From contig CBDCVQ010000009.1 in the NCBI GenBank assembly GCA_965223165.1, forward strand, positions 119,544 through 183,543: 64,000 bases of DNA, written 5' to 3'. Source of the DNA: Saprospiraceae bacterium. GTDB lineage: Bacteria > Bacteroidota > Bacteroidia > Chitinophagales > Saprospiraceae. Under the pieces are notes generated by a model, which saw only the letters and a program-made list of their open reading frames with translations, searched no databases and was not told where the DNA came from. The position numbers were made by a program, and so were the translations under genes. Positions 15,049 to 64,000 of the stretch are shown one piece after another (positions within the stretch are counted from its first letter, which is position 1; the number at the start of each line of letters is the position of its first letter).

Positions 15049-15174
15049 TGTCCTGATCCAGGGAAATGTATTGATCGCTTTGGGAGCCAGACGATTTCGA
15101 GCAAGTTCCGCCGAGTAATCGTGTGGTCTCGAATGATGATCACTAGCGACATAAACTCTAAAGATTCCAGTCTA

Positions 15175-15253
15175 TTCTAATAATTAGCGCTAAATACTCG
15201 AGTCCGTTCTAATAATTAGCACTAAATACTCGAACCCATTCTAATAATTAGAG
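15175..15253. repeat. 32-bp direct tandem repeat, about 2.5 copies (TTCTAATAATTAGCRCTAAATACTCGARYCCR)
   Basis: Copies at 15175-15206, 15207-15238 and a partial copy at 15239-15253, each containing the near-palindrome CTAATAATTAG. It lies between the convergent 5'-nucleotidase and cupin genes. Confidence 0.85.
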
Positions 15254-31704: not shown

Positions 31705-31730
31705 CATATAGTTTTGGCATATATTTCTAT
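31705..31730 (+). promoter_or_regulatory. Conserved promoter box CATATAGTTTTGGCATATATTTCTAT (sigma-54 -24-like TGGCA; alternatively a Bacteroidota -7 box TAGTTTTG)
   Basis: 25 of 26 nt are identical to 51539-51564. TGGCA at 31715-31719 lies about 94 nt from the palindrome centre. The -12 region reads TCTA where canonical TGGCAC-N5-TTGC spacing predicts TTGC, so the sigma-factor assignment is open. Confidence 0.5.
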
Positions 31731-39663: not shown

Positions 39664-39799
39664 ACGTGGGTGCGACCCAAGGGCTGGCGCAGCACCATCC
39701 TGCATTGGGAGGGTAATCCCGAACGATTTTTTTAAGAAAAGTAGGTCGCCTAAACCAATCATTGGACTCATGGCTGCCACAACCGAAAGTACGATTACT

Positions 39800-42241
39800 A
39801 TGTGGAGAAATCATCTGATGGTGGCTATCCGGAGTCTCTCCAAAAAGAGATTCTACACGATCATCAACATAGCTGGCCTTGCCTTGGGATTAATGGCGGC
39901 CATCTTTATCTGGCAGGACGTCTCTTACGAACGGAGCTTTGACGAGTTCCATGACCACGCGAATCGAATTTTTCGATTGGCAACCGTCTTTGAGACCCAT
40001 GGGGGACAGTTGGAGAATGACGCCTCCAATGCCGCGCCTGTCGGGCCGGCCCTGAAGGCCGAATTTGCCGAGGTCGAAGATTTTGTCCGGATCTCGCCTG
40101 AGTACGGACGCATGGTCTTGCAATACGGGGACCAGACCCACGAGCAACACAAAGTCTATTATGTAGATTCTAATTTCCTTCAGTTTTTTGATCACGAAAT
40201 CATCCAGGGAGATCCGCATACTGCCTTGGTGGCCCCCTACTCCATCGTCCTGACAAGATCCGCGGCGGAACGCTACTTTGGCCCGCGCGAACATTGGACA
40301 GAGACCTATGTCGGTAGAAGCTTGCGGGTCAATCAAACCGCTGACTACCAGATCACCGCGATTATTGAGGACCCGCCCCCAAATACTCACTTTAGGTTCG
40401 GCTCCCTCCTTTCCTTTACCACCTTTCCGATCACCAATGGCGATCCCAGCAACGAATGGGAGTGGAATGATTTTTACACCTACATCCTTTTGGGAGAGGC
40501 TGCGCAAATGCACGACCTGGAGCCTAAGCTGCGCGCCTTTGCCGACAGACACATCAATCAAAAAGGAACCGAGGGCTATACCGTCTCGTACTTGCCTCAA
40601 TCCCTCAAGGGCATTCATTTAAATTCCAGGTTAGGGTACGAATTGCAAGCGAATGGAGATGCGACCACGACTAATTTCTTATTTCTAATCGCAGTCTGTA
40701 TTCTTCTGATCGCATGGGCAAATTACATCAACCTCTCCACCGCTCAAGCAGAGGACCGAGCTGAAGAAGTGGGTATTCGAAAGGTGATTGGGGCCAATCG
40801 GCGCTCGCTAATCACCCAATTTTTGATCGAAGCATTGGTGGTAAATACCAGCGCAGTAGCACTAGCAATATTATTGGTATTTCTCCTGCAGCCATGGATG
40901 AATGCGCTGACGGGCAAGACCCTCGAAGCCTTTGCCTATTTTCCCATTTCCGTGCCCGGTGTCTTTCTGCTCCTGTCCATTGGCAGCACCTTAATCTCGG
41001 GCATCTATCCATCCGTAGTCTTGTCTGGCTATTCACCGTCAAAATCCCTGCAACCTCAAATGCGCGGTGGTCCGCAGCAGTGGCTGAGGAAAGGCCTCGT
41101 GACCTTCCAGTATATGTCCTCGATCGTTTTGATCATTGGGACCTTTGTCGTTTTCAGGCAATTGGACTTTATGAAAAGCGCCGACCTTGGTTTCTCGGCA
41201 GATCACAAATTAATTCTCAATGCTCCATCCATCTATACGGATTCGGTGCACCACCTGCGCTACCAGACGTTCAAAACCAAACTTCTCCAGCATCCCACGA
41301 TATCCAGCGTCACGGCCTCATCAGCGATACCCGGCAAGTTTTACAACGACCTGGATAACTGGGGAGGCATCCGTATGCAGAGTGCCGACGACAGCCAAAA
41401 AGCGAGTTTTACCCTCTACCGGGTGGACGACCACTATTATGAGACCTACGGCTTGCAGGTCATCGCCGGCCAGGCCTTTTCCAATGAGACCACTGCTGAC
41501 GACCGCTCGCTGGCGGTCAATGAGGCAGCCCTTCAATTGCTCGGATTTGATGATCCAAAGGAAGCGATCGGCCAGAAAGTCCGTATGCAAAGTGATCGCC
41601 GCATATTTCCTATCTCCAACGTATTTCGAAACTATCACCACAAGTCGCTCCGTCACAATCACGAACCCACCATTCTTTGGAATTTCATTCCAGATCCCCT
41701 GTATTATTCCATCAAGTATCATGAAAGTGCCTCAGCCGAACCCAACCAACTGCTCCGCACGGTCTCGGAGATTTGGGAGGAAGTGTTTCCTGACAACCCC
41801 TTTGTACACACCTTCTTTGAAGACCAATACAATGACCAGTACACATCTGACAGCCGCCTGGGAAGGATCATAGCAGTCTTTGCCCTTTTTGCCGTTTTCA
41901 TCGCTTGTCTAGGCATCTTAGGCATGACTTCCTATATGATCGCCATGCGCACCAAAGAATTGGGCATTCGAAAAGTGCTTGGAGCCAGTGTCCGGAGCAT
42001 TGTGCTGGTCCTGTCAATGGATTTCGTTTGGCTAATTGTGCTTGCCTCACTCGTGGCTATTCCGATTGCCTTTGTCCTTGCCAGCAGGTGGCTCGAAAAC
42101 TTTGCCTACAAGACCTCTCTGGATTGGTGGCTATTTGCTACCGCTGGGGTGCTGACGCTGGTCACCGCGATGGTCACCGTCAGCTTTCAAAGCGTCCGAG
42201 CGGCCTTGAAGAATCCGATCGATGCCCTTCGTACCGAATAA
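39800..42241 (+). CDS. Duplicated FtsX/MacB-type ABC permease (paralog 4)
   Basis: ATG 39800 (MWRNHLMVAIRSL) was chosen by alignment with the paralog N-termini; the ORF is open from 39770. Motifs are ANYINLSTAQAEDRAEEVGIRKVIGA and MRTKELGIRKVLGAS; the C-terminus is NPIDALRTE. Confidence 0.9.
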   Translation: MWRNHLMVAIRSLSKKRFYTIINIAGLALGLMAAIFIWQDVSYERSFDEFHDHANRIFRLATVFETHGGQLENDASNAAPVGPALKAEFAEVEDFVRISPEYGRMVLQYGDQTHEQHKVYYVDSNFLQFFDHEIIQGDPHTALVAPYSIVLTRSAAERYFGPREHWTETYVGRSLRVNQTADYQITAIIEDPPPNTHFRFGSLLSFTTFPITNGDPSNEWEWNDFYTYILLGEAAQMHDLEPKLRAFADRHINQKGTEGYTVSYLPQSLKGIHLNSRLGYELQANGDATTTNFLFLIAVCILLIAWANYINLSTAQAEDRAEEVGIRKVIGANRRSLITQFLIEALVVNTSAVALAILLVFLLQPWMNALTGKTLEAFAYFPISVPGVFLLLSIGSTLISGIYPSVVLSGYSPSKSLQPQMRGGPQQWLRKGLVTFQYMSSIVLIIGTFVVFRQLDFMKSADLGFSADHKLILNAPSIYTDSVHHLRYQTFKTKLLQHPTISSVTASSAIPGKFYNDLDNWGGIRMQSADDSQKASFTLYRVDDHYYETYGLQVIAGQAFSNETTADDRSLAVNEAALQLLGFDDPKEAIGQKVRMQSDRRIFPISNVFRNYHHKSLRHNHEPTILWNFIPDPLYYSIKYHESASAEPNQLLRTVSEIWEEVFPDNPFVHTFFEDQYNDQYTSDSRLGRIIAVFALFAVFIACLGILGMTSYMIAMRTKELGIRKVLGASVRSIVLVLSMDFVWLIVLASLVAIPIAFVLASRWLENFAYKTSLDWWLFATAGVLTLVTAMVTVSFQSVRAALKNPIDALRTE

Positions 42242-42259: not shown

Positions 42260-42397
42260 CAATTTCAATGGCAATTTCAATTTCAATGGCAATGGCAATT
42301 TCGATGGCAATGGCAATTTCAATGGCAATGGCAATGACAATTTCGATGGCAATGGCAATTTCAATGGCAATGGCAATTTCAATGGCAATGACAGTGG
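42260..42397 (+). repeat. Hexanucleotide tandem array (CAATKK), 23 units, with an 18-bp higher-order unit CAATTT-CAATGG-CAATGG
   Basis: Parsed unit by unit from the sequence. Variants are CAATTT, CAATGG, CGATGG, CAATGA and CAGTGG. It starts 18 nt after the paralog-4 stop codon. Confidence 0.95.
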
Positions 42398-42502: not shown

Positions 42503-42892
42503 ATGCTGCTTATGAATGCCTCTCTTCCTCTTCAACTTGCACTGGCTGCCTACCACGGATTTGCCAGGGGCGACATGCATCCATTATTTGCCATGCTGGC
42601 AGAGGACATCGTCTGGACGAATCACAGCTCCAGTCCCTACTCGCCTTTTGCCGGTGTCCACTACGGCATTGAGGGAGTAAAATCCTATTTCAGCCATATG
42701 CCGGAGATCGATCAAGAGCGGTTCGCGATTCAGGCCATCGCTGAACAAAATGGATATGTGATGGTCACCATCGACCGAAAGGCCACCTACCTGGCTGCTG
42801 ATAAAATACATGAAGGGCAGATCGCCCACGTGCTCCACTTTGAGGAGGGCAAACTGCGACGTATGGATATTTACGAGCACCGGTACGGTTAA
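42503..42892 (+). CDS. SnoaL-like / NTF2-fold small protein
   Basis: 129 aa. Pattern LALAAYHGFARGDMHPLFAMLAEDIVWTNH...HVLHFEEGKLRRMDIY is typical of SnoaL-like/ketosteroid-isomerase-like domains. The start could be the ATG at 42512. Confidence 0.55.
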   Translation: MLLMNASLPLQLALAAYHGFARGDMHPLFAMLAEDIVWTNHSSSPYSPFAGVHYGIEGVKSYFSHMPEIDQERFAIQAIAEQNGYVMVTIDRKATYLAADKIHEGQIAHVLHFEEGKLRRMDIYEHRYG

Positions 42893-45713: not shown

Positions 45714-46046
45714 ATGAGTAGACATCACCTGGGAGAATTTGAAGAGATCGTCATGCTGACTGTAGCCATCCTGCACGGGGAGGCATATGGTATTGCCATC
45801 TTAAATGAAATCGAGGACCGTCTCCATCGCAAGGTGAGTATCGGCTCGCTTCAGACCGTGTTGCGGCGGCTCGAAGACAAGGGCTATCTCAGTTCTGAGC
45901 TTGGTGAGGCCACAGCGGTACGGGGAGGAAAACGAAAGCGATTCTTTCAGGTGACAAATTACGGAAAGAAAGTGCTGACACAGACGAAGGAGCAACGAAT
46001 GTCTCTTTGGAAAGCTATTCCTAAAATCGCCTGGGATCGCTCATGA
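45714..46046 (+). CDS. PadR-family transcriptional regulator (short, 110 aa)
   Basis: LGEFEEIVMLTVAILHGEAYGIAILNEI...GSLQTVLRRLEDKGYLSSELGEATAVRGGKRKRFFQVT. Its stop overlaps the next start (ATGA). Confidence 0.9.
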   Translation: MSRHHLGEFEEIVMLTVAILHGEAYGIAILNEIEDRLHRKVSIGSLQTVLRRLEDKGYLSSELGEATAVRGGKRKRFFQVTNYGKKVLTQTKEQRMSLWKAIPKIAWDRS

Positions 46047-51538: not shown

Positions 51539-51564
51539 CATAGAGTTTTGGCATATATTTCTAT
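51539..51564 (+). promoter_or_regulatory. Second copy of the conserved promoter box CATAGAGTTTTGGCATATATTTCTAT
   Basis: 25 of 26 nt are identical to 31705-31730, while the roughly 80 nt between palindrome and box are not conserved. It is 104 nt upstream of the paralog-7 ATG at 51668. Confidence 0.5.
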
Positions 51565-51667: not shown

Positions 51668-54115
51668 ATGTTTCGAAATAATCTGAAGATCGCATGGCGA
51701 AACGTCCTTCGCCACAAACTGTACAGCTTGCTCAACGTGCTTGGGCTGGGATTTGGCATCGCCTGCTTTCTCTTCATAGCACTATATGTCATCGATGAGT
51801 TAACCTTCGACCGATTTCACCAAAAGTCGGATCGGATATATCGACTCGTCCAACATCGTGAATCGCCCGAGGAGGGTGTCCAAAAATTTGGAGCCGTTTC
51901 TTACAATGCCGGCGTAGCTGCGCGCGAGGAGATCGCCGGCGTGGAAAGCAGTACCCATCTCTTCATGTTTGGTCGGGCCGTCCTGCGCAATCCGGCCAAC
52001 CAAAATGCCTTCTATCAGCCATTCTTAACGGCTGAGCCCACTTTTTTTGATCTCTTTGATTTTGCGTTCATCTCAGGAGATCCATCTACGGCTCTGGCAG
52101 AACCAAACACGGTCGTGTTGGAGCAAGACCTGGCTCAAAGACTCTTTGGCGACCTTGACCCCATGGGACAAATACTACGTAGCGATCGGGGCATGGATCT
52201 GGAGGTTACCGGTGTGCTGAAAGACCTACCTTCCAATTCGCATATTCAATTTGAATCCTTGATCTCACAGGCTACCCTCGAAGCGGTACCCTTTTGGGAG
52301 AGGAATATGCCCGGCGATTGGTCCAGCCAGAACTTTGGCACCTACCTGGCACTGCACCCCGACCAGGAGCCTGCAACGATCGGTGCGCAATTGACGGATT
52401 TTGCCCGGGCCCGAGCAAGGGAAGAACGGCCTTTTACGGGCCATTTGGAATTGCAACCCCTCACCGACATTCACTTTGGATCCGAGGGATACCAGCGCGA
52501 ATTAAACGAGCAGAAGAGCACCTATACTTATCTCTACATATTTAGTTTGATCGGACTTTTTATTGTACTCATTGCTTGTGTCAACTATGTAAACCTGGCC
52601 ACCGCACGTTCGTCCAAGTACAGCCGAGAGGTCGGCGTAAGAAAGGTGGTAGGTGCCGGTCGCCGACAGTTGTTCGCTCGCTTCCTTTCTGAAAGTGTAG
52701 TGTTGACGCTGTTGGCTTTCTTCCTGGCCGTGGCCTTGACCCAGGCAGGCTTACCTCTGTTTAATGAATTTACCGGCAAAGCACTCACTCTCAATTTATT
52801 TGCCTCTGGCTGGACCATCCCCACCATGGCTGCGATCATTTTCCTGGTCAGCCTATTGGCCGGTAGTTATCCCTCGATCTATCTCTCTCGATTTCGGCCA
52901 TCCGTGGTACTCAAGGGCGTACAAAACACGGAAAAGGGTAAGCATGGTCTGTTGAGGCGAGGACTGGTCGTACTTCAGTTTTCGATCTCCATTCTGATGA
53001 TCATCGGCACATTGGTCGCGTGGCGTCAGGTAAGTTTCGTGATGCATCGTGATCTGGGTTTTGCCCAAGACCAGCGTATCGTAGTAGATATAAATAGTGG
53101 TCGGGTGCGGCAGGGATTTGAAACCATCAAGCATGGCTATGAGCAATTGCCGGACGTAAGATCGGTTTCTGTGAGCAGCCGCGTCCCCGGCGAATGGAAG
53201 ACTCTACTGCAGGCGGAGATCCGACCGGAAGGCAAGTTTGCCGAAACGGGGCCTACCCCTTGGTTTATTGGTGCGGACGAGGATTTTCTCGAGACCTTTG
53301 AAATCGATCTGATCAGCGGGCGAAATTTTGATCCGCAGCGTCCCATGGATTCCGCATCAATCATTCTCAATCAGCAAGCGGCAGCGGTCTTAGGCATCGA
53401 TGCTGCCGCGGGACAGTCCGTGCAAGTGGTCAGCCGAATTGCCAATGGTTCAGAGCGGATGTTTGACGAACCATTTCGGGCGCAAGTCATTGGCATCATG
53501 GAGGACTTCAATTTTCAGTCGTTATACGAGCCCGTTACTCCACTGGTGCTGGCATACCGCAGTAATCCGGTGCAAGCCATCGATTATTTTACCGCCCATG
53601 TATCCGGTCAAAACACCGAAAGGACGATCCAGCAGATGACCGAGATCCTGCACTCCGTCGATCCTGAACAATTATTCGAATATCACTTTTTGGACGAGCA
53701 GATCGATCAATTTTACGAGGCAGACGTCCAGCGCTCACAGCTCTTTTCTACCGCAGCCCTCTGTGCCATCTTTATTGCGTGCCTGGGGCTCTTTGGTCTC
53801 GCCGCATTTATGGCCGAGCAACGCACCAAGGAAATTGGCATACGGAAAGTGCTGGGATCGAGTACCGTTGGCATCGTCCAACTGCTGTCGAAGGATTTTA
53901 TCAAACTGGTACTGATTGCGCTGTTGGTGGCCTCTCCCCTTGCCTATCACTTCATGGAGCAATGGCTGCAGGGGTTTGCCTACCGCATTAGCATCGCCTG
54001 GTGGATGTTTGCGGTAGCCGGTGCCTTTGCCGCTACCATCGCTTTGGTGACGGTAGGATATCATAGTATTAGAGCCGCTACGTCCAACCCGGCAGAAGCA
54101 TTGCGGAGTGAATAG
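51668..54115 (+). CDS. Duplicated FtsX/MacB-type ABC permease (paralog 7)
   Basis: 815 aa with N-terminus MFRNNLKIAWRNV. Motifs are VNYVNLATARSSKYSREVGVRKVVGA and QRTKEIGIRKVLGSS; the C-terminus is NPAEALRSE. Confidence 0.9.
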   Translation: MFRNNLKIAWRNVLRHKLYSLLNVLGLGFGIACFLFIALYVIDELTFDRFHQKSDRIYRLVQHRESPEEGVQKFGAVSYNAGVAAREEIAGVESSTHLFMFGRAVLRNPANQNAFYQPFLTAEPTFFDLFDFAFISGDPSTALAEPNTVVLEQDLAQRLFGDLDPMGQILRSDRGMDLEVTGVLKDLPSNSHIQFESLISQATLEAVPFWERNMPGDWSSQNFGTYLALHPDQEPATIGAQLTDFARARAREERPFTGHLELQPLTDIHFGSEGYQRELNEQKSTYTYLYIFSLIGLFIVLIACVNYVNLATARSSKYSREVGVRKVVGAGRRQLFARFLSESVVLTLLAFFLAVALTQAGLPLFNEFTGKALTLNLFASGWTIPTMAAIIFLVSLLAGSYPSIYLSRFRPSVVLKGVQNTEKGKHGLLRRGLVVLQFSISILMIIGTLVAWRQVSFVMHRDLGFAQDQRIVVDINSGRVRQGFETIKHGYEQLPDVRSVSVSSRVPGEWKTLLQAEIRPEGKFAETGPTPWFIGADEDFLETFEIDLISGRNFDPQRPMDSASIILNQQAAAVLGIDAAAGQSVQVVSRIANGSERMFDEPFRAQVIGIMEDFNFQSLYEPVTPLVLAYRSNPVQAIDYFTAHVSGQNTERTIQQMTEILHSVDPEQLFEYHFLDEQIDQFYEADVQRSQLFSTAALCAIFIACLGLFGLAAFMAEQRTKEIGIRKVLGSSTVGIVQLLSKDFIKLVLIALLVASPLAYHFMEQWLQGFAYRISIAWWMFAVAGAFAATIALVTVGYHSIRAATSNPAEALRSE

Positions 54116-54307
54116 CAATTTCAATGGCAATAGCAATTTCAATGGCAATTTCAATGGCAATGGCAATTTCAATTTCAATGGCAATGGCAATGGCAATTTC
54201 AATGGCAATAGCAATTTCAATGGCAATGGCAATTTCAATGGCAATAGCAATTTCAATGGCAATAGCAATTTCAATGGCAATTTCAATGGCAATGGCAATG
54301 GCAATTA
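54116..54307 (+). repeat. Hexanucleotide tandem array (CAATTT/CAATGG/CAATAG), 32 units, starting at the base after the stop codon
   Basis: Parsed unit by unit. The stop TAG is at 54113-54115 and the first CAATTT is at 54116. A recurring 18-bp super-unit is CAATTT-CAATGG-CAAT(G/A)G. Confidence 0.95.
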
Positions 54308-54356
54308 GCAGTGAACAATTAGCAATTAGCAATGAACAATTAACAATGAGCAATGA
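54308..54356 (+). repeat. Heptanucleotide tandem array (RCAATKA), 7 units
   Basis: GCAGTGA ACAATTA GCAATTA GCAATGA ACAATTA ACAATGA GCAATGA, read directly and contiguous with the hexamer array. Confidence 0.85.
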
Positions 54357-54430
54357 GCAGTTTATTAGGATCGTAGAGCACGGACGCTTTGCGGGAGTGA
54401 TCTGCGAGCCGCAACCAGGGATACAACTAG

Positions 54431-54528
54431 CAGTGAACAATTAGGCAATGGCATTTCAATATCAATAGCAATGTCAATGACAATGTCATACAGTGCACAA
54501 ATCAACAATTCAACATCTACACAATTCC
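54431..54528 (+). repeat. Degenerate CAAT-core repeat tract
   Basis: CAGTGAACAATTAGGCAATGGCATTTCAATATCAATAGCAATGTCAATGACAATGTCA...CAACAATTCAACATCTACACAATTCC. It mixes decayed 6-8-bp CAAT units between the heptamer and octamer arrays. Confidence 0.7.
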
Positions 54529-54728
54529 ACCATAAAACCATAAAACCATAAAACCATAAAACCATAAGACCATAAGACCATAAGACCATAAGACCATAAG
54601 ACCATAAAACCATAAAACCATAAAACCATAAGACCATAAGACCATAAGACCATAAAACCATAAAACCATAAAACCATAAAACCATAAGACCATAAAACCA
54701 TAAAACCATAAAACCATAAGACCATAAA
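54529..54728 (+). repeat. Octanucleotide tandem array (ACCATAAR), 25 units, ending 2 nt before the ATG of paralog 8
   Basis: Parsed unit by unit. With A = ACCATAAA and G = ACCATAAG the order is AAAA GGGGG AAA GGG AAAA G AAA G A. It is exactly 200 bp, followed by AT then ATG (54731). Confidence 0.95.
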
Positions 54729-54730
54729 AT

Positions 54731-57103
54731 ATGTTTAGAAATCACATGAGGGTGGCCTGGAGGAATTTGATTAAATATCCCTCCTATTCATTGGTGAATC
54801 TTTGCGGATTGGCGCTCGGTATCTCCGCCTCCTTCGTGCTGCTGCTCTATGCGATTCAGGAGTTGAGCTATGATCGGCATTTTGCTGATGGCGATCGCAT
54901 CTACCGCATCGCTGCGGACTTCTATAATATGGGTGGCTTCGCCAAGAGCCAGGAGGGGCTGTTGGATCATCTGCCTTCCGAGTGTCCCAGCATTGCGCAG
55001 TATACGCGATTTGACAAGGGAACCGCTTTGGAGCTGACAGTGGATGATCAGCCTTATGTGGAACGAGATTTCCTTTATGTCGACTCTCTTTTCTTTCAGA
55101 TGTTTCCTTACACATTCGTAGAAGGAGAGGCCGGCGAGGTGATGACCACGCCTCATGAGATCATTCTCTCGGAAAGGCTTGCCCGCAAATATTTTGGAAA
55201 AGAAAGCGCACTCGGCAAGTACGTGGAAATCGGAGAAGATGGACTATCGTATCGCGTATCAGGGGTGGTACAGTCTACGACCAAGAAGACTCATCTAAAG
55301 TCTGATCTCTGGCTCCCCGTATACAATAGACATGAGAAAAATCCACATTGGACCAATGTCACCTACTATAATTACGTAAAACTACATCCATCTGCGGGGG
55401 CGCATGATCTTGAGATTGCGCTGGAGGAGTTGCGGCGAAAGAAAGTGCATCCTTCGATCGCACCTAATTCTAGCTTTGAGGAGTGGTCACAGAGTGATTT
55501 TGCCGTCAAATTCTTCGTACAGCCGCTCCATGACATTTATTTGCACTCCGACTTTGCCATGATGGAGACGATACCCGGCGGCAATCCTACGCAAATTTAC
55601 ATCCTCGGGATCATAGGTATATTCATCATTCTGATCGCCGGATCCAATTACATAAACCTCACCACGGCTCGATCGTCCCTTCGCGGAAAGGAAGTGGGTA
55701 TCCGCAAGACCTTGGGCGCGGAGCGTCGGATGCTCGTCAAACAGATGCTGACCGAGTCCATTCTGTTTAGCCTGTTGGCCGCGGTGATCGCAGCTGGCTT
55801 GGTCGAAATCCTGCTCTTGGCCTTTAAGAAGATCAGTGGGACAGCCATTCTATCGACGCTGCTCAGCGGCTGGCAATACATTGGTCTGCTATTGTTATAC
55901 TCCTTGCTATCAGGAGTATTCGCGGGCATTTATCCTGCGTTTTATCTGACGGCCTTCCGACCTGCACGCACGATCAAGGGCAACTTTACGGCCAAGGGCA
56001 ACAAGCGTCTTCGCGGCGGACTAGTCAGCCTACAGTTTTGCATCGCGATCGCCTTGATTGTATCCAGCCTAATCGTCTACCAGCAATTAAGATATCTCCA
56101 GACCAAGGATACGGGATTTGAAATGGAGGGAGTGGTAGTAGTGGATAATGTGGTCGACCTGGGTGGGCAGGAGGAAGCGTTCAGACAAAAATTAAGGACG
56201 CAGCCGCAGTTGCAGTTATCTAGCTTTGCGCAGCGATTACCCGCTGGCAACAGCATGTGGATGAGTTCTTACCGTACGCCGGAGATGAGTGAGACGGTAA
56301 CGATCCAGACCTTTCCGGTAGACGCCGACTACATACCTGTGATGGGTATGCGATTGGAGTCCGGTCGAAACTTTGACCGCCAACTGGCGACTGACTCCAA
56401 TTCGGTTATTATCAACGAGATGGCCGCCAAGAAGCTGGGGCTTACTCAGCCAATTGGTTCGGTACTCAACGGCAATCTGAAAGTGGTTGGCCTGGTACGC
56501 GATTTTAATTTCCAATCGTTTAGAGACCAGATCGCTCCTGCCGTCCTGACGATGGGAAAAGAGATGGGTAGACTACTCATTCTCAAACTCCATGGCACCG
56601 ACATCAGTAGCTTCTTAACCTATATGAATGAAACATGGCTCGAATTCTCCAGTGAGGAGCCGATACAGTATCATTTTCTCGAGGAAAATTTTGCAACCCT
56701 GGTCCAGAACGAACGAACCTTGAGTCAAGCCATCGGTTTTTTCACTCTTTTGGCATTGATCATCGCCTGTCTGGGCCTTTACGGCTTGGCATCCTTCACG
56801 GCAGAGCAGCGGACGCGAGAAATCGGCATTCGCAAGATCCTAGGTTCGTCGACGTTTGGTATCGTCAGTCTACTTTCACGGGACTTCCTCAAACTCGTCC
56901 TGATTGCTTTAGTGGTGGCAGCCCCGATTGCCTACGTCTTAATGAATCAATGGCTGCAGGGCTTTGCCTTTCGGATTCAGATATCGTGGTGGACCTTTGC
57001 CTTAGCGGGCCTAGCGGCTATGGCTATTGCATTTCTCACCGTAGGATATCAAAGTCTGAAAGTAGCCCTTACAAACCCTGCAGATTCGCTACGAAATGAA
57101 TGA
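54731..57103 (+). CDS. Duplicated FtsX/MacB-type ABC permease (paralog 8)
   Basis: 790 aa with N-terminus MFRNHMRVAWRNL. Motifs are SNYINLTTARSSLRGKEVGIRKTLGA and QRTREIGIRKILGSS; the C-terminus is NPADSLRNE. Confidence 0.9.
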   Translation: MFRNHMRVAWRNLIKYPSYSLVNLCGLALGISASFVLLLYAIQELSYDRHFADGDRIYRIAADFYNMGGFAKSQEGLLDHLPSECPSIAQYTRFDKGTALELTVDDQPYVERDFLYVDSLFFQMFPYTFVEGEAGEVMTTPHEIILSERLARKYFGKESALGKYVEIGEDGLSYRVSGVVQSTTKKTHLKSDLWLPVYNRHEKNPHWTNVTYYNYVKLHPSAGAHDLEIALEELRRKKVHPSIAPNSSFEEWSQSDFAVKFFVQPLHDIYLHSDFAMMETIPGGNPTQIYILGIIGIFIILIAGSNYINLTTARSSLRGKEVGIRKTLGAERRMLVKQMLTESILFSLLAAVIAAGLVEILLLAFKKISGTAILSTLLSGWQYIGLLLLYSLLSGVFAGIYPAFYLTAFRPARTIKGNFTAKGNKRLRGGLVSLQFCIAIALIVSSLIVYQQLRYLQTKDTGFEMEGVVVVDNVVDLGGQEEAFRQKLRTQPQLQLSSFAQRLPAGNSMWMSSYRTPEMSETVTIQTFPVDADYIPVMGMRLESGRNFDRQLATDSNSVIINEMAAKKLGLTQPIGSVLNGNLKVVGLVRDFNFQSFRDQIAPAVLTMGKEMGRLLILKLHGTDISSFLTYMNETWLEFSSEEPIQYHFLEENFATLVQNERTLSQAIGFFTLLALIIACLGLYGLASFTAEQRTREIGIRKILGSSTFGIVSLLSRDFLKLVLIALVVAAPIAYVLMNQWLQGFAFRIQISWWTFALAGLAAMAIAFLTVGYQSLKVALTNPADSLRNE

Positions 57104-57104
57104 G

Positions 57105-57158
57105 CAATGGCAATTTCAATGGCAATTTCAATGGCAATTTCAATGGCAATAGCAATAC
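57105..57158 (+). repeat. Hexanucleotide tandem array (CAATGG/CAATTT alternating), 9 units
   Basis: It starts 1 nt after stop TGA 57101-57103: CAATGG CAATTT CAATGG CAATTT CAATGG CAATTT CAATGG CAATAG CAATAC. Confidence 0.9.
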
Positions 57159-57169
57159 GGAGGTCAGTT

Positions 57170-57217
57170 CAACAATTCAACAATTCAACAATTCAACAAT
57201 TCAACAATTCAACAATT
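57170..57217 (+). repeat. Octanucleotide tandem array (CAACAATT), 6 perfect units, ending 14 nt before the ATG of paralog 9
   Basis: Parsed directly. It is followed by CGACACCATAACAC then ATG (57232). The ACCATAA just before the start echoes the 54529 array unit. Confidence 0.9.
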
Positions 57218-57231
57218 CGACACCATAACAC

Positions 57232-61299: not shown

Positions 61300-63735
61300 A
61301 TGTGGAGAAATTATTTGAAGATTGCCCGGCGCCAGATGCGCAACAAATGGCAGCTTTCCGCGCTCAAAATACTGGGCTTGGCATCTGCAGTTTCGGCCAG
61401 TCTGCTACTGATTAAATACGTCTCCTGGCAGTGGACCTTTGACCGCTTTCACGAGCAGGCAGCACATATTGTCAGAATTCAGAATGACCACCACGATGTG
61501 GAAGGGCGATTAAGTCGCAGTGCCAAGACCTACAGCGGTGTAGCTGTGGTGGCTAATGATCGATTTCCGGCGGTGCACGACTATGTGCGGATGGGGCGCT
61601 GGATTGCCAACGATGTGGTGTTTAGATTTGAGGAACAGATGTTCCGTGGAAGGGACGTATTCTTTGTCGATTCTTCTTTCTTTGATGTTTTCAGCTTTGA
61701 GCTGGTCAGAGGCGATCCTCAGAATGCACTTGCGGAGCCAAACAGTGTCGTGCTCACAGAAAAGGTCGCCCGTCAACTCTTCGGCGATCGGGAAGCCATC
61801 GGAGAGGAAATTATTTTCGAAAATCGACGAAATTTTCACGTAACCGGCATAGTGGCGGATCCTCCCAAGGAATCTCACATCCAATTTGACATTCTTGCAT
61901 CTCTGTCCACTTTTCACAGCTGGGGATTTCAGGTATACGGAGATGCACAATTACGACAACCCTATGTCTATAGCTACCTCTTGCTAGAACCGGGCACCGA
62001 TGTCCCGGAACTCGCTACCCAATTGACCCGTGAGATTAGTTCACTGAAGGTTGACATTCCCGGATCAGACGAATTCGACTTGCAGCCCCTCACCGAGATT
62101 CACCTCTATTCCAACCTAGAGCAGGAATTATCAAGTACTGGTCAGGGAAATAATATCTGGATCCTCAGTGGAGTCGCTCTGCTGATTTTGTTGCTTGGAT
62201 GGATCAATCATTTTAATCTGTTTACCGCCTCAGCCCTGCAGCAGTCAGAGTCGCTGAGCATCCGAAAGATCATCGGTGCTGAGCGAAAACACTTATTCGC
62301 CCAGATCGCCATCGCAGGTAGTATCTATGGCATGCTCAGTCTAGCCCTTGCCGCTGTCGTTGTTGAGGTTGTTCAGCCCTTGATTTCAGCCAACTTCGAT
62401 GTGCCTTTGGCAGAAGTTCCGTTGGTAAATTGGCAAATTTCCAATCCCGCATTTATCTTATTGATCCTTCTCGTCGTCGGTACCGGCCTTAGTATTTGGG
62501 GGCCCGCCATCCTACTGTCGGAAATCCGGCCCAAGCACCTGCTCAGTCGCAAGCTATTTTTCAATCCGGGCGGTTGGCACTTCCGACGTGTCCTGGTGGG
62601 CTTCCAGTTTACGATCATCATTTGCTTACTCGCATGTACAATCGTGGTCTTTCAGCAGACGCGATATATGCAGCGGCAGGATCCGGGACTTGCAGTTGAT
62701 GACGTGCTGGTTTTAAGAGCTCCCCTGGGCATTGGCTACGAGAATCTAAGGGGCAGTTTCCCCGGATTTAGAGATGACGTGATGAGCCGAGGCGAAGTGC
62801 TCCAAATGAGCCTTTCTCATTCCATCCCTGGGGAGGAATTGGAGCTAATAAATAAAGTTGAGCACAACGGCAAGACCTATAGCTTCAGTTTTTATCGCAA
62901 TTATGGCAGCCTGGATTATTTCGACAGTTATGATATCGCCTTTCTGGAGAAATCAGATGTCCTTTCTGCACCCGCTGCCGCCCAAGGCTCCGATGAGCTT
63001 CGTCGCTCTGTGATTAATCAAAAGGCCTCGCAACTGCTTGGGTTTGCCTCACCTGCCGAGGCAATCGGTCAAAAGATCAGACGGTGGGAGCAGGACCAAG
63101 TGATCGTTGCGGTGGTGGACGATTATCATCAGCGCTCGTTACACCACGCCCAGGCTCCCATCATCTACGACATTATCGCCAACGATCTGATCGAAGATGG
63201 GTACTATTCCTTTGAGTTAAATCATCCTGACGAGAGGACATTGTTGCTCACGCATCTTCAAGATGCCTATCAAAAGGCATTTCCCCATACCGTTTTTGAA
63301 CCCGTTGATCCCCAGGAGCAATACGCGCAGCAGTATGCACAAGACAATCATTTTGCTCAACTCAATATGGCCTTTACTGTCCTCGGCATTTTGATCGGCG
63401 TACTTGGGCTCTTGGGTCTGATGATCATTGTGGTTGAAATGCGAACCCGGGAAGTCAGCGTCAGGCGAATACTCGGTGCAACCTACTGGCAGATCATTTC
63501 TACGCTGTCACATCAGCTGGTTAAGGCAGTGATCATAAGCTTTTTGATCGCCCTGCCCGTGGGATATTATTTAATGGGAAAGTGGTTGGATAATTTCAGC
63601 TACCACGTTGCTGTGGATTTTGGCGCTTTCGCGATCTCTGGCATGGTAGCTCTCCTATTGGTGCTACTGACAGTCGCCTATCACGGCATCAAGGTGGCCA
63701 AACTTAATCCCGCGGATGTGTTGCGGGAGGAGTGA
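61300..63735 (+). CDS. Duplicated FtsX/MacB-type ABC permease (paralog 10, most divergent)
   Basis: 811 aa with N-terminus MWRNYLKIARRQM. Motifs are INHFNLFTASALQQSESLSIRKIIGA and MRTREVSVRRILGAT; the C-terminus is NPADVLREE. Confidence 0.85.
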   Translation: MWRNYLKIARRQMRNKWQLSALKILGLASAVSASLLLIKYVSWQWTFDRFHEQAAHIVRIQNDHHDVEGRLSRSAKTYSGVAVVANDRFPAVHDYVRMGRWIANDVVFRFEEQMFRGRDVFFVDSSFFDVFSFELVRGDPQNALAEPNSVVLTEKVARQLFGDREAIGEEIIFENRRNFHVTGIVADPPKESHIQFDILASLSTFHSWGFQVYGDAQLRQPYVYSYLLLEPGTDVPELATQLTREISSLKVDIPGSDEFDLQPLTEIHLYSNLEQELSSTGQGNNIWILSGVALLILLLGWINHFNLFTASALQQSESLSIRKIIGAERKHLFAQIAIAGSIYGMLSLALAAVVVEVVQPLISANFDVPLAEVPLVNWQISNPAFILLILLVVGTGLSIWGPAILLSEIRPKHLLSRKLFFNPGGWHFRRVLVGFQFTIIICLLACTIVVFQQTRYMQRQDPGLAVDDVLVLRAPLGIGYENLRGSFPGFRDDVMSRGEVLQMSLSHSIPGEELELINKVEHNGKTYSFSFYRNYGSLDYFDSYDIAFLEKSDVLSAPAAAQGSDELRRSVINQKASQLLGFASPAEAIGQKIRRWEQDQVIVAVVDDYHQRSLHHAQAPIIYDIIANDLIEDGYYSFELNHPDERTLLLTHLQDAYQKAFPHTVFEPVDPQEQYAQQYAQDNHFAQLNMAFTVLGILIGVLGLLGLMIIVVEMRTREVSVRRILGATYWQIISTLSHQLVKAVIISFLIALPVGYYLMGKWLDNFSYHVAVDFGAFAISGMVALLLVLLTVAYHGIKVAKLNPADVLREE

Positions 63736-63736
63736 A

Positions 63737-64000
63737 CGATGGCAATGGCAATGGCAATGGCAATGACAATTTCAATGGCAATGAACAATGAACAGTGAAC
63801 AATGAACAGTGAACAATGAACAGTGAACAGTGAACAGTGGCAATGACAATGACAATGGCAATGACAATATCAATGGCAATGAACAATGAACAGTGAACAA
63901 TGAACAGTGAACAATGAACAATGAACAGTGAACAATGAACAGTGAACAATGAACAGTGAACAATGAACAGTGAACAATGAACAGTGAACAATGAACAGTG
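63737..64000 (+). repeat. Composite tandem-repeat tract of alternating hexamer (CAATGR/CAATTT) and heptamer (ACAATGA/ACAGTGA) blocks, running off the window end
   Basis: Parsed directly as hexamers 63737-63784 (8 units), heptamers 63785-63840 (8), hexamers 63841-63882 (7), and heptamers 63883-64000 (16+, mostly the 14-mer ACAATGAACAGTGA). It starts 1 nt after stop TGA 63733-63735. Confidence 0.95.

What the first reader, a model, noticed from the sequence alone, without database searches (positions are those of the whole stretch)
54529..54733. (ACCATAAR)x25 abuts a start codon and shows a run-structured two-state A/G pattern
Seen: exactly 25 octamers differ only at position 8, in runs AAAA GGGGG AAA GGG AAAA G AAA G A, followed by AT and the ATG of paralog 8. 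A related situation occurs at 57170-57217, where (CAACAATT)x6 and then CACCATAACAC precede the ATG of paralog 9. The run structure suggests stepwise local duplication of blocks rather than random point mutation. Established: Bacteroidota largely initiate translation without Shine-Dalgarno pairing and favour unstructured A-rich leaders. Unit-number changes in promoter-proximal or leader repeats are a classical phase-variation mechanism in other bacteria. Inference: either the array acts as a ribosome standby or enhancer leader, or its length tunes or phase-varies expression of individual permease paralogs. An 8-bp unit also changes helical phasing at each step.
Basis: partly seen in the sequence, partly recalled or inferred. 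Interest (0 to 1): 0.7.

Follow-up and report, generated by a model that had tools for sequence, protein, structure and literature searches.

The report
Octamer repeat leader of permease gene
Twenty-five copies of an eight-letter DNA word sit directly in front of a transporter gene in a Bacteroidota genome; this is a slippage-prone repeat of a known general kind that gives the gene an open leader with no start codons, and nothing yet shows that its length controls the gene.

Summary
Window 54529-54728 is 25 perfect ACCATAAR octamers (position-8 pattern AAAAGGGGGAAAGGGAAAAGAAAGA), followed by AT and the ATG at 54731 of a 790-aa MacB/FtsX-type permease. Homologue N-termini confirm that ATG, although the public gene call uses the next ATG.

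The array is the last third of a 615-nt spacer that is 81% tandem repeats. Related hexamer and heptamer arrays follow three other permease paralogs in the window.

On the sense strand the array has no ATG, GTG or TTG, has TAA in all three frames and is predicted to be fully unpaired. It supplies A at -3, -12 and -13, which fits Shine-Dalgarno-independent initiation in Bacteroidia.

The nearest relatives (49-55% identity) have short, non-repetitive spacers. Arrays of the same octamer in metagenomes differ in unit number between copies of one locus with 97-100% identical flanks, in 6 of 9 groups.

My best reading is a slippage-generated variable-number repeat that is tolerated as a permissive leader. 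Unit changes leave the initiation context unchanged, so on/off phase variation is unlikely. Graded tuning is neither excluded nor shown.

This is a new member of a known kind, of moderate interest.

The parts
54529..54728 (+). (ACCATAAR)x25 octamer array, the finding itself. It forms positions -3 to -202 relative to the start codon.
   Evidence: Composition A115 C50 G10 T25. Sense strand: 0 ATG/GTG/TTG and 25 TAA spread over all three frames. Antisense strand: 25 ATG and 0 stops. Fully unpaired in the predicted RNA fold.
54729..54733 (+). AT linker plus the ATG start codon of the permease paralog
   Evidence: The start is confirmed by the register of homologue N-termini. A at -3, -12 and -13, U at -6.
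54731..57103 (+). 790-aa MacB_PCD/FtsX double-module permease ('paralog 8'), intact
   Evidence: Pfam MacB_PCD 3.9e-28 and FtsX 1.7e-22. 100% match to P0001; the next best hit is 55%.
54111..54359 (+). Arrays that follow the upstream stop codon: CAATGG/CAATTT/CAATAG hexamers, then 7/14/21-nt CAATGAA/CAATTAG-type units. The upstream gene's TAG is part of the first unit.
   Evidence: TRF rows; sequence
54360..54455 (+). The only non-repetitive core of the spacer. It contains a small predicted hairpin and no U-tract.
   Evidence: No terminator-like or sigma-70-like site.
54456..54515 (+). Short CAATGT/CAATAA and ACAAATCA arrays between the core and the octamer array
51668..54115 (+). Upstream 815-aa permease paralog. 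It is probably co-transcribed with paralog 8 (inference).
   Evidence: No promoter or terminator motif lies between the two genes.
51544..51564 (+). 21-bp element AGTTTTGGCATATATTTCTAT. An exact duplicate lies at 31710-31730, just upstream of the HlyD gene. This is a candidate promoter/operator for the operon that includes paralog 8.
   Evidence: 2 exact copies, 0 expected. TAGTTTTG at 31709 matches the Bacteroidetes -7 motif. A promoter role is an inference.
57099..57222 (+). Sister spacer: a (CAATGGCAATTT)n array after the stop codon, then a (TTCAACAA/CAACAATT)x6-7 array before the next start, then CGACACCATAACAC and the ATG at 57232
   Evidence: Fold z = +2.6.
42260..42390 (+). CAATGG/CAATTT array 19 nt after the stop of permease 39770-42241
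   Evidence: Fold z = +3.1.
63731..64000 (+). CAATGG/CAATGA hexamers and CAATGAA/CAGTGAA heptamers that start at the stop of permease 61300-63735 and run off the window
   Evidence: Fold z = +2.1.

Best explanation
The array is a variable-number tandem repeat made by replication slippage or unequal exchange of 8-bp units. It lies inside the transcribed spacer between two co-directional permease paralogs.

It persists because, in this orientation, it is harmless to translation and possibly mildly helpful. As RNA it is an unpaired, A/C-rich tract with no AUG and many stop codons. It runs right up to position -3 and itself supplies the Shine-Dalgarno-independent initiation context of paralog 8 (A at -3, -12 and -13).

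Gain or loss of units changes spacer length in 8-nt steps, but changes neither the reading frame nor the sequence next to the start codon. Any effect on expression should therefore be graded and indirect (distance from the upstream cistron, mRNA decay or polarity), not an on/off switch.

Shown: the anatomy, the start codon, the lack of predicted structure, the absence of the array in relatives, and the hypervariability of the same octamer elsewhere.

Inferred: co-transcription with the upstream paralog, slippage as the mechanism, and near-neutrality.
For: 1. Seven of the eight unit positions are invariant across 25 units, and the only variation is one A/G state at position 8. That is the mark of recent unit propagation, not point mutation.

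2. In same-locus groups of ACCATAAR arrays from metagenomes, unit number differs in 6 of 9 groups although the flanks are 97-100% identical. Examples: L091 has 4 units and L146 has 7 with 100% identical 400-nt flanks on both sides; L098 has 5 and L171 has 6; L110 has 11 and L174 has 8; L135 has 10 and L164 has 5.

3. The array is not conserved. The closest permease loci (Saprospiraceae/Phaeodactylibacter MAGs, 45-52% identity) have 12-205-nt non-repetitive A/T-rich spacers. In a Lentimicrobiaceae-like organism the SLT-to-rsmA spacer carries six ACCATAAG units, but it is a plain 30-76-nt spacer in genomes whose RsmA is 81-83% identical.

4. Leader properties. The array is fully unpaired in the MFE and centroid folds. 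There is no ATG in the last 247 nt before the start, and the array has no ATG/GTG/TTG. A at -3, -12 and -13 matches the determinants measured in Flavobacterium johnsoniae (PMC6847099).

5. The spacer has no sigma-70-like promoter, no intrinsic-terminator-like site and no TAnnTTTG motif. The nearest promoter-like element is at 51544.

6. Rfam has no match in 41500-64000. The mechanical ORFs through the arrays hit no Pfam family.
Against: 1. Arrays are not randomly placed in the window. They occupy 4 of 7 spacers downstream of permease genes against 1 of 28 other spacers (Fisher P = 0.003).

2. The same CAATGG/CAATTT family follows four paralogs that are only 23-38% identical. That points to a directed process, gene conversion or selection.

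3. In coding-dense metagenome contigs the octamer is biased to the sense orientation. The ratio is 36:17 relative to the gene on its 5' side (P = 0.013). By my count from the lists it is 12:2 for arrays within 60 nt upstream of a start codon. This fits selection at the RNA level. The loci are not all independent, however, and a bias linked to the replication strand is not excluded.

4. Twenty-five units is long for a neutral bacterial repeat.

5. Low predicted structure is expected for any tandem repeat whose unit is not self-complementary, so it is not evidence of selection either way.

6. No second genome of this species was available, so variability at this locus is untested.
Confidence: 0.55

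Rival explanations
1. Rheostat-type phase variation. Slippage changes unit number at high frequency, and array length tunes expression of this single paralog, as repeat number in the 5' UTR tunes the Haemophilus influenzae HMW1A adhesin.
For: The same octamer is hypervariable in natural populations. The array lies between the upstream gene and the start codon, like the hmw1A (ATCTTTC)n repeat, whose length is inversely proportional to expression (PMC12721329 and PMC8262952). Many tandem paralogs with individually different spacers would suit paralog-by-paralog tuning.
Against: The hmw mechanism needs a long hairpin between the repeats and a complementary G-rich arm, processed by RNase III. Here the array has no pairing partner, and the whole spacer folds worse than its shuffles (z = +4.8). 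Unit changes do not alter the initiation region or the reading frame. No promoter motif was found in the spacer. The array is absent from relatives. There are no population data for this locus.
Confidence: 0.15
2. Selected translation enhancer or ribosome standby platform. The long single-stranded A/C-rich tract recruits 30S subunits (for example through protein bS1) to an internal cistron that lies 615 nt from the previous stop codon in an organism that does not use Shine-Dalgarno pairing.
For: The array is unpaired and free of AUG, with A at -3, -12 and -13. Mutating the A-rich -14 to -11 region lowers translation in F. johnsoniae, that region is predicted to lie near ribosomal protein S1, and AUG is depleted near Bacteroidetes start codons. 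The arrays next to the two start codons in the window (ACCATAAR, TTCAACAA) lack ATG, whereas the arrays that follow stop codons are full of ATG. Sense-orientation bias of 12:2 near start codons.
Against: One or two units would already supply the known determinants, which lie at -3 to -14, so 25 units are unexplained. Homologous genes and orthologous spacers manage with 12-200 nt of ordinary sequence. In metagenomes the octamer more often sits next to the upstream stop codon than next to the downstream start, and sometimes lies between convergent genes, where it cannot be a leader.
Confidence: 0.15
3. An RNA-level site for a trans-acting factor. One possibility is a Rho loading (rut) site: 200 nt of untranslated, unstructured RNA with 25% C and 5% G that would impose length-dependent polarity on the downstream paralogs. 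Others are a multivalent site for an RNA-binding protein or a ribonuclease entry site.
For: The composition (C 50, G 10 of 200 nt) and lack of structure match the general description of rut sites, which I take from established knowledge and did not test. The array lies in a long untranslated gap inside a probable operon.
Against: The accompanying arrays (CAATGG/CAATTT here; GACCGTAA/GAGCGTAA in the Lentimicrobiaceae-like organism) do not have more C than G, so this explanation does not generalise. The array ends at a start codon, where loading ribosomes would compete with Rho. There is no experimental handle here.
Confidence: 0.08
4. A DNA-level element: a binding-site array for a regulator, or a spacer whose 8-bp steps rotate an upstream promoter or operator relative to the gene.
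For: An 8-bp unit does change helical phase at each step. A PadR regulator gene lies in the cluster.
Against: No promoter-like motif of either the sigma-70 or the Bacteroidetes type lies in or upstream of the array within the spacer. The unit is not palindromic, unlike typical PadR operators (my own knowledge). The strand bias of such arrays relative to genes points to RNA rather than DNA.
Confidence: 0.04

Closest known systems
Haemophilus influenzae hmw1A/hmw2A (ATCTTTC)n repeat in the 5' UTR (PMC12721329, PMC8262952)
   Same: It is a short non-triplet unit (7 vs 8 nt) repeated 10-30 times between the upstream region and the start codon, outside the coding sequence. It is slippage-prone. Its length can in principle act as a rheostat rather than a frame switch.
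   Different: The hmw repeat works through a long 5'-UTR hairpin with a G-rich partner arm and RNase III cleavage. The array here has no partner and is predicted to be fully single-stranded. The promoter position is unknown here. The gene is an ABC-type permease paralog, not an adhesin. No expression or population data exist.
Intergenic VNTRs with 6-9-bp units, as used for MLVA typing of bacteria (general class; recalled from my own knowledge apart from the MLVA paper listed)
   Same: These are head-to-tail, near-perfect short units in non-coding DNA. Unit number differs between close strains while the flanks stay identical, as found for this octamer.
   Different: Most described VNTRs are isolated loci. 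Here a 615-nt spacer is 81% built from five or six different arrays, the array touches the start codon, and related arrays follow several paralogs.
Cyanobacterial STRR (short tandemly repeated repetitive) heptamer sequences
   Same: These are short tandem arrays in spacers inside operons and are transcribed. Their function is still unknown, with proposals of transcript stability or translational coupling (PMC2670836). The window also has heptamer arrays (CAATGAA/CAGTGAA, 63779-63997).
   Different: STRR arrays belong to a different phylum, are often described as hairpin-forming and are dispersed genome-wide. The arrays here are unstructured. Within the 64 kb seen, all but one lie in the permease cluster.
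Shine-Dalgarno-independent, Kozak-like initiation regions of Bacteroidia (Baez et al. 2019, PMC6847099)
   Same: A at -3, -12 and -13, low secondary structure and no nearby AUG are the measured positive features, and the array supplies all of them.
   Different: Those features span about 20 nt of ordinary sequence. Nothing in that work involves tandem repeats or leaders of 200 nt. Position -6 is U here.
Hairpin-type spacers between the same permease paralogs in Cytophagales and other Bacteroidota (seen here; I know of no description)
   Same: They occupy the same gene family and the same position (stop codon to next start). They are also built from low-complexity or tandem units, and the arm that follows the stop resembles the gene's last codons.
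   Different: Those spacers are long, near-perfect inverted repeats (z down to -15.6; 32 of 59 below -2). The window's spacers are the opposite (z from about 0 to +4.8).

Membership tests
Intergenic VNTR / simple sequence repeat (slipped-strand hypermutable locus) | Head-to-tail, near-identical copies of a short unit in non-coding DNA | tested here: met
   25 units, 7 of 8 positions invariant, TRF score 332. The ORFs through the array are mechanical and hit no Pfam family.
Intergenic VNTR / simple sequence repeat (slipped-strand hypermutable locus) | Unit number differs between closely related genomes at the same locus | tested here: inconclusive
   Not testable at this locus. The only public copy of the protein is P0001, on one contig, and neither look-up of encoding contigs found it. 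For the same octamer at other loci the feature is met: 6 of 9 same-locus groups differ in unit number with 97-100% identical flanks.
hmw1A-type 5'-UTR repeat phase variation | The repeat is transcribed as part of the 5' UTR, downstream of the promoter | tested here: inconclusive
   No promoter-like motif in the 615-nt spacer. The array is probably transcribed by read-through from about 51544, but there are no transcript data.
hmw1A-type 5'-UTR repeat phase variation | The repeats pair with a complementary arm to form a long hairpin cleaved by RNase III | tested here: not met
   The array is unpaired in the MFE and centroid folds. The whole spacer has z = +4.77, and 20 of 20 shuffles fold better.
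hmw1A-type 5'-UTR repeat phase variation | Expression varies with repeat number, and unit number is heterogeneous within a population | not testable with these tools
   Needs reporter fusions and deep long-read sequencing of a clone.
Classical contingency locus (frame-shifting or promoter-spacer repeat) | The repeat lies inside the coding sequence or between the -35 and -10 promoter elements, so that a unit change switches the gene on or off | tested here: not met
   The array ends 2 nt before the start codon and is outside the ORF. No promoter hexamers flank it.
Cyanobacterial STRR | Heptanucleotide unit | tested here: not met
   The unit here is 8 nt. Heptamers do occur nearby, at 63779-63997.
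Cyanobacterial STRR | Dispersed at many intergenic sites across the genome | tested here: inconclusive
   Only 64 kb is available. Five spacers carry arrays, four of them in the permease cluster.
Bacteroidia Shine-Dalgarno-independent initiation region | A at -3, -6, -12 and -13 | tested here: met
   A at -3, -12 and -13; U at -6. That is 3 of 4, judged against PMC6847099.
Bacteroidia Shine-Dalgarno-independent initiation region | Low secondary structure, and AUG depleted from -21 to -1 | tested here: met
   Unpaired. No ATG from 54484 to 54730.
Rho utilisation (rut) site | An untranslated, unstructured RNA tract of about 80 nt or more with more C than G | tested here: met
   C 50 and G 10 of 200 nt, and unpaired. 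This is a matter of composition only.
Rho utilisation (rut) site | Rho-dependent termination downstream | not testable with these tools
   Needs Rho inhibition or depletion together with transcript mapping.

The most novel reading that the evidence does not exclude
In some Bacteroidota, which initiate translation without Shine-Dalgarno pairing, spacers between cistrons would be actively built from sense-strand short tandem arrays seeded at stop codons, much like the cyanobacterial STRR arrays. In this reading the start-proximal arrays, which have no AUG and no structure, such as (ACCATAAR)25, are selected leader modules of adjustable length. They would set the expression of individual paralogs in multi-permease operons, and would be the unstructured counterpart of the hairpin spacers that the same gene family carries in Cytophagales.
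Probability: 0.12. Interest if true: 0.65.

Novelty: new member of a known kind. Interest (0 to 1): 0.4.

Why it matters
If the array is only a tolerated repeat, it is still a useful natural experiment. It shows that a Bacteroidota gene can keep an initiation region made entirely of repeat units, and that 200 nt of sequence with no AUG and no structure is compatible with an intact gene.

It also gives a ready-made series of 8-nt steps for testing how leader length and distance from the previous cistron affect Shine-Dalgarno-independent initiation.

If length does tune expression, this would be the first repeat-based rheostat I know of in this phylum, which is better known for invertible promoters. 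It would also suggest how large families of permease paralogs are individually dosed.

The wider pattern seen in passing may be the more rewarding lead. Spacers between these paralogs are long hairpins in many Bacteroidota but unstructured arrays here, and both kinds appear to be seeded from the genes' conserved last codons.

Tried and rejected
- Look-up of the exact 790-aa protein and of the public 785-aa version on contigs: nothing on record. No second strain could therefore be compared. The protein search confirmed a single public copy, with the next relative at 55% identity.
- Conservation of the array among relatives: rejected. No array lies upstream of the closest homologues.
- Inheritance of the arrays through tandem duplication of gene plus spacer: rejected. 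The paralogs are 23-38% identical, while the arrays are near-perfect.
- A coding role for the arrays: rejected. The sense strand has TAA in all frames. The antisense ORFs and the hexamer-array ORFs are mechanical and match no Pfam family.
- A known RNA family: none in Rfam at E <= 1, apart from one chance snoRNA hit inside a gene.
- A sigma-70 promoter or intrinsic terminator in the spacer: none. A Bacteroidetes TAnnTTTG -7 motif in the spacer: none.
- Pairing between the hexamer arrays that follow the stop codon and the octamer array (the hairpin model seen in Cytophagales): not found.
- The run structure as proof of block duplication: only P = 0.067.
- Rho loading as a general explanation: the companion arrays do not have more C than G.
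- Literature searches for FtsX or Bacteroidetes intergenic tandem repeats: no relevant paper.
- Not attempted: testing whether ACCATAAR is commoner than permuted octamers.
- Caveat on the metagenome set: some hits are eukaryotic telomere-like repeats (L172, L154, L159, L173, L107), and the coding-density filter may not have removed all of them.
Full report
**Observation**

The sequence is exactly as described. Window 54529-54728 holds 25 head-to-tail octamers ACCATAAR. Positions 1-7 never vary, and position 8 reads AAAAGGGGGAAAGGGAAAAGAAAGA. AT and ATG (54731) follow. TRF reports period 8, 25.1 copies, score 332.

The companion observation also holds. 57170-57217 is (CAACAATT)x6, followed by CGACACCATAACAC and the ATG at 57232.

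The run structure is only weakly non-random: 9 runs against 13 expected, exact one-sided P = 0.067. The better argument for unit propagation is that all ten variant units share one base at one position, while the other 175 bases carry no change.

**The gene and its start**

54731-57103 encodes an intact 790-aa permease with two MacB_PCD/FtsX modules. It is one of nine such paralogs in a cluster with an HlyD-type protein, two ABC ATPases, a PadR regulator and an S41/TPR protein.

The only public copy of the protein (P0001) is 785 aa long, because it was called from the second ATG at 54746. However, 86 of 119 homologues start exactly nine residues before the W/L-R-N motif, with the consensus M[LF][KR]N[HY][LFI]K[IL]A[WL]RN. 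The first ATG gives MFRNHMRVAWRN in the same register.

The first ATG also has the better context, with A at -3, -12 and -13 and no upstream AUG. The second has C at -3 and an AUG 15 nt upstream. The array therefore really does abut the start codon.

**Surroundings**

The array is the last third of a 615-nt spacer between two co-directional paralogs. TRF arrays cover 81% of that spacer:
- CAATGG/CAATTT/CAATAG hexamers, which begin within the upstream gene's TAG stop codon.
- 7/14/21-nt CAATGAA/CAATTAG-type units.
- A unique core of about 95 nt with a small hairpin.
- Two short arrays, then the octamers.

Arrays of the same hexamer family start 0-19 nt after the stop codons of three other paralogs, at 42260, 57099 and 63731. 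Within the window, arrays occupy 4 of 7 spacers downstream of permease genes against 1 of 28 other spacers (Fisher P = 0.003).

The paralogs are only 23-38% identical. The near-perfect arrays are therefore much younger than the gene duplications.

The spacer has no sigma-70-like promoter, no terminator-like site and no Bacteroidetes-type TAnnTTTG motif. A 21-bp element, AGTTTTGGCATATATTTCTAT, occurs exactly twice, at 31710 upstream of the HlyD gene and at 51544 upstream of permease 51668. I infer, but cannot show, that paralog 8 is transcribed from about 51544 as an internal cistron.

**Properties as RNA**

The array has 115 A, 50 C, 10 G and 25 T. On the sense strand it has no ATG, GTG or TTG, and 25 TAA spread over all three frames. 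The antisense strand would carry 25 ATG and no stops. The last ATG before the start codon is at 54483, which is 247 nt upstream.

The array is completely unpaired in the MFE and centroid folds. The whole spacer folds worse than all 20 dinucleotide shuffles (z = +4.77), and the sister spacers behave the same way (z = +2.1 to +3.1). Any tandem repeat whose unit is not self-complementary will score like this, so the result describes the RNA and does not prove selection.

These features match what is established for Bacteroidia. Their ribosomes ignore Shine-Dalgarno sequences. Initiation is favoured by A at -3, -6, -12 and -13 and by low structure, and AUG is depleted near start codons (PMC6847099).

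**Relatives**

The source genome is not among the species representatives. The nearest loci are Saprospiraceae, Lewinellaceae and Phaeodactylibacter MAGs at 45-55% identity. Their spacers are 12-205 nt long, A/T-rich and non-repetitive. The array is lineage-specific.

**The same octamer elsewhere**

A metagenome scan for four or more units found 105 stretches. Some are eukaryotic telomere-like repeats, but many are coding-dense prokaryotic contigs. In those contigs:
- The arrays are intergenic and often fill the spacer from stop codon to start codon.
- They are biased to the sense orientation, 36:17 relative to the gene on the 5' side (P = 0.013).
- By my count from the lists, the bias is 12:2 for arrays within 60 nt upstream of a start codon. 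The loci are not all independent.

Unit number is hypervariable. In 6 of 9 same-locus groups the count differs while 400-nt flanks are 97-100% identical, for example 4 vs 7, 5 vs 6, 11 vs 8 and 10 vs 5 units.

One organism in sample Ga0209628 has composite spacers very like the window's. After the stop codon come GACCGTAA/GAGCGTAA/GACCATAA octamers, then CACTAAT/CACTAAC or TTGAACTT units, then the ATG. These spacers lie next to ordinary genes such as rsmA, and next to three permease homologues. Its RsmA is 81-83% identical to those of Lentimicrobiaceae and Bacteroidales MAGs. In those related genomes the orthologous SLT-to-rsmA spacer is a plain 30-76 nt. Arrays of this kind are therefore dispensable, recent additions.

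**Mechanism**

I conclude with about 55% confidence that (ACCATAAR)25 is a slippage-generated variable-number repeat in a transcribed spacer. It is tolerated, and perhaps mildly favoured, because in the sense orientation it is an open leader with no start codons and many stop codons, and it provides the gene's initiation context itself.

The array reaches position -3. Adding or removing units therefore leaves both the initiation region and the reading frame unchanged. This argues against an on/off switch and leaves only graded, indirect effects.

**Rivals**

- Rheostat like H. influenzae hmw1A (0.15). That system's defining hairpin with a G-rich arm and RNase III cleavage has no counterpart here.
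- Selected enhancer or standby platform (0.15). This does not explain why 25 units are needed when relatives use ordinary short leaders.
- Rho loading or another RNA-factor site (0.08). The composition fits, but the idea does not extend to the companion arrays.
- DNA-level spacing or binding site (0.04). No promoter motif was found.

**Comparison with known systems and novelty**

The array belongs to the general class of intergenic VNTRs and simple sequence repeats.

It resembles the hmw1A 5'-UTR repeat in position and unit size, but fails that system's structural requirement.

It resembles cyanobacterial STRR arrays, whose function is still unknown, in being a short transcribed array inside an operon. 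It differs in unit length, phylum and lack of hairpin potential.

I found no description of such arrays in Bacteroidota, although the searches were limited. I rate it a new member of a known kind, with interest 0.4.

**Seen in passing**

In 59 spacers between large co-directional ORFs in the 80 related loci, the median fold z-score is -2.3. Thirty-two are below -2 and none is above +2. Many are long, near-perfect low-complexity hairpins that run from the stop codon to 10-25 nt before the next ATG. The window's lineage does the opposite.

In both kinds of spacer the sequence just after the stop codon echoes the family's conserved last codons (...R-N/S-E-stop). Examples are AGTGAATAG|CAATTT and AATGAATGA|GCAATGG here, and GGAATGA|TATAGTGAATCGTGAATGG in L010. 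This suggests that the arrays are seeded by slippage at the genes' 3' ends.

Noticed in passing
L011 8419-8532, L036 3416-3519 and 5908-6000, L019 8413-8521, L017 5683-5772, L062 5693-5769, L033 5742-6000 and others: Spacers between tandem permease paralogs in Larkinella, Spirosoma, Fibrisoma and other Bacteroidota are long, near-perfect hairpins built from low-complexity or tandem units. The 5' arm starts at the stop codon and the 3' arm ends 10-25 nt before the next ATG. Across 59 such spacers the median z is -2.3, 32 are below -2 and none is above +2 (minimum -15.6). The window's spacers are the opposite. Translational coupling or transcript stabilisation are possible roles.
   Followed up: partly
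window 54098-54130, 57086-57120, 63779-63997; L062 5681-5720; L010 9034-9080; L011 11155-11230: The repeat units just after the stop codon resemble the conserved last codons of the permeases (...R-N/S-E-stop: AGTGAATAG, AATGAATGA). CAGTGAA/CAATGAA heptamers occur here, AATGAAC/AATTAAC in Larkinella terrae, GTGAATG in L010 and TGAATAT in L011. This suggests the arrays are seeded by slippage at the gene's 3' end, which would explain their association with this gene family.
   Followed up: partly
window 42260-42390, 54111-54306, 57099-57156, 63731-63888: The same CAATGG/CAATTT hexamer family follows four paralogs that are only 23-38% identical, while 27 of 28 other spacers in the window have no array. 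Independent seeding, gene conversion between spacers, and selection all remain open.
   Followed up: partly
window 31710-31730 and 51544-51564: An exact 21-bp duplicate, AGTTTTGGCATATATTTCTAT (0 expected by chance), lies upstream of the HlyD gene and of permease 51668. The first copy overlaps a TAGTTTTG match to the Bacteroidetes -7 promoter motif. It is probably a shared promoter/operator of two operons.
   Followed up: partly
window 54731 vs 54746: The public gene call for this protein (P0001, 785 aa) starts at the second ATG. Several homologues in the database are also visibly truncated at the N-terminus (P0024, P0038, P0040, P0041). Start codons in this family seem to be mis-set often.
   Followed up: yes
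L081-L160 contigs named Ga0209628_*, L186, L187: A Lentimicrobiaceae/Bacteroidales-like organism carries composite arrays of 8-nt and 7-nt units in many spacers, including upstream of rsmA and of a gene whose N-terminus I read by eye as NadC-like (not scanned). Related genomes have plain 30-76-nt spacers at the orthologous rsmA site. This looks like a genome-wide, lineage-specific tendency to build repeats.
   Followed up: partly
L060 796-880 and 1328-1429: Two successive spacers carry complementary octamer arrays: (ATGTGTTG)n after one gene and (CAACACAT/ACATCAAC)n before the next but one. They could pair over about 500 nt of mRNA or reflect an inversion.
   Followed up: no
window 45714-46046 and 46043: A PadR-family regulator gene overlaps by 4 nt (ATGA) the start of an 870-aa permease with an N-terminal extension. 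The next permease (48652) overlaps that one in the same way. This part of the cluster is tightly coupled, in contrast to the repeat-filled spacers further on.
   Followed up: no
window 42503-42892: A 129-aa SnoaL-like gene lies between the array at 42260-42390 and the next large ORF. That array therefore precedes a small unrelated gene rather than a permease.
   Followed up: no
window 15158-15251: A 32-bp unit repeated 2.9 times (CTAAATACTCGAGTCCATTCTAATAATTAGCA) lies in a spacer outside the permease cluster. It is the only other tandem repeat of note in the window.
   Followed up: no
L172, L154, L159, L173, L107: Some metagenome hits to the octamer sit among CCCTAAAA-type units or next to other long simple repeats in GC-rich contigs. 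They look like algal telomeric or subtelomeric variants rather than bacterial DNA.
   Followed up: no
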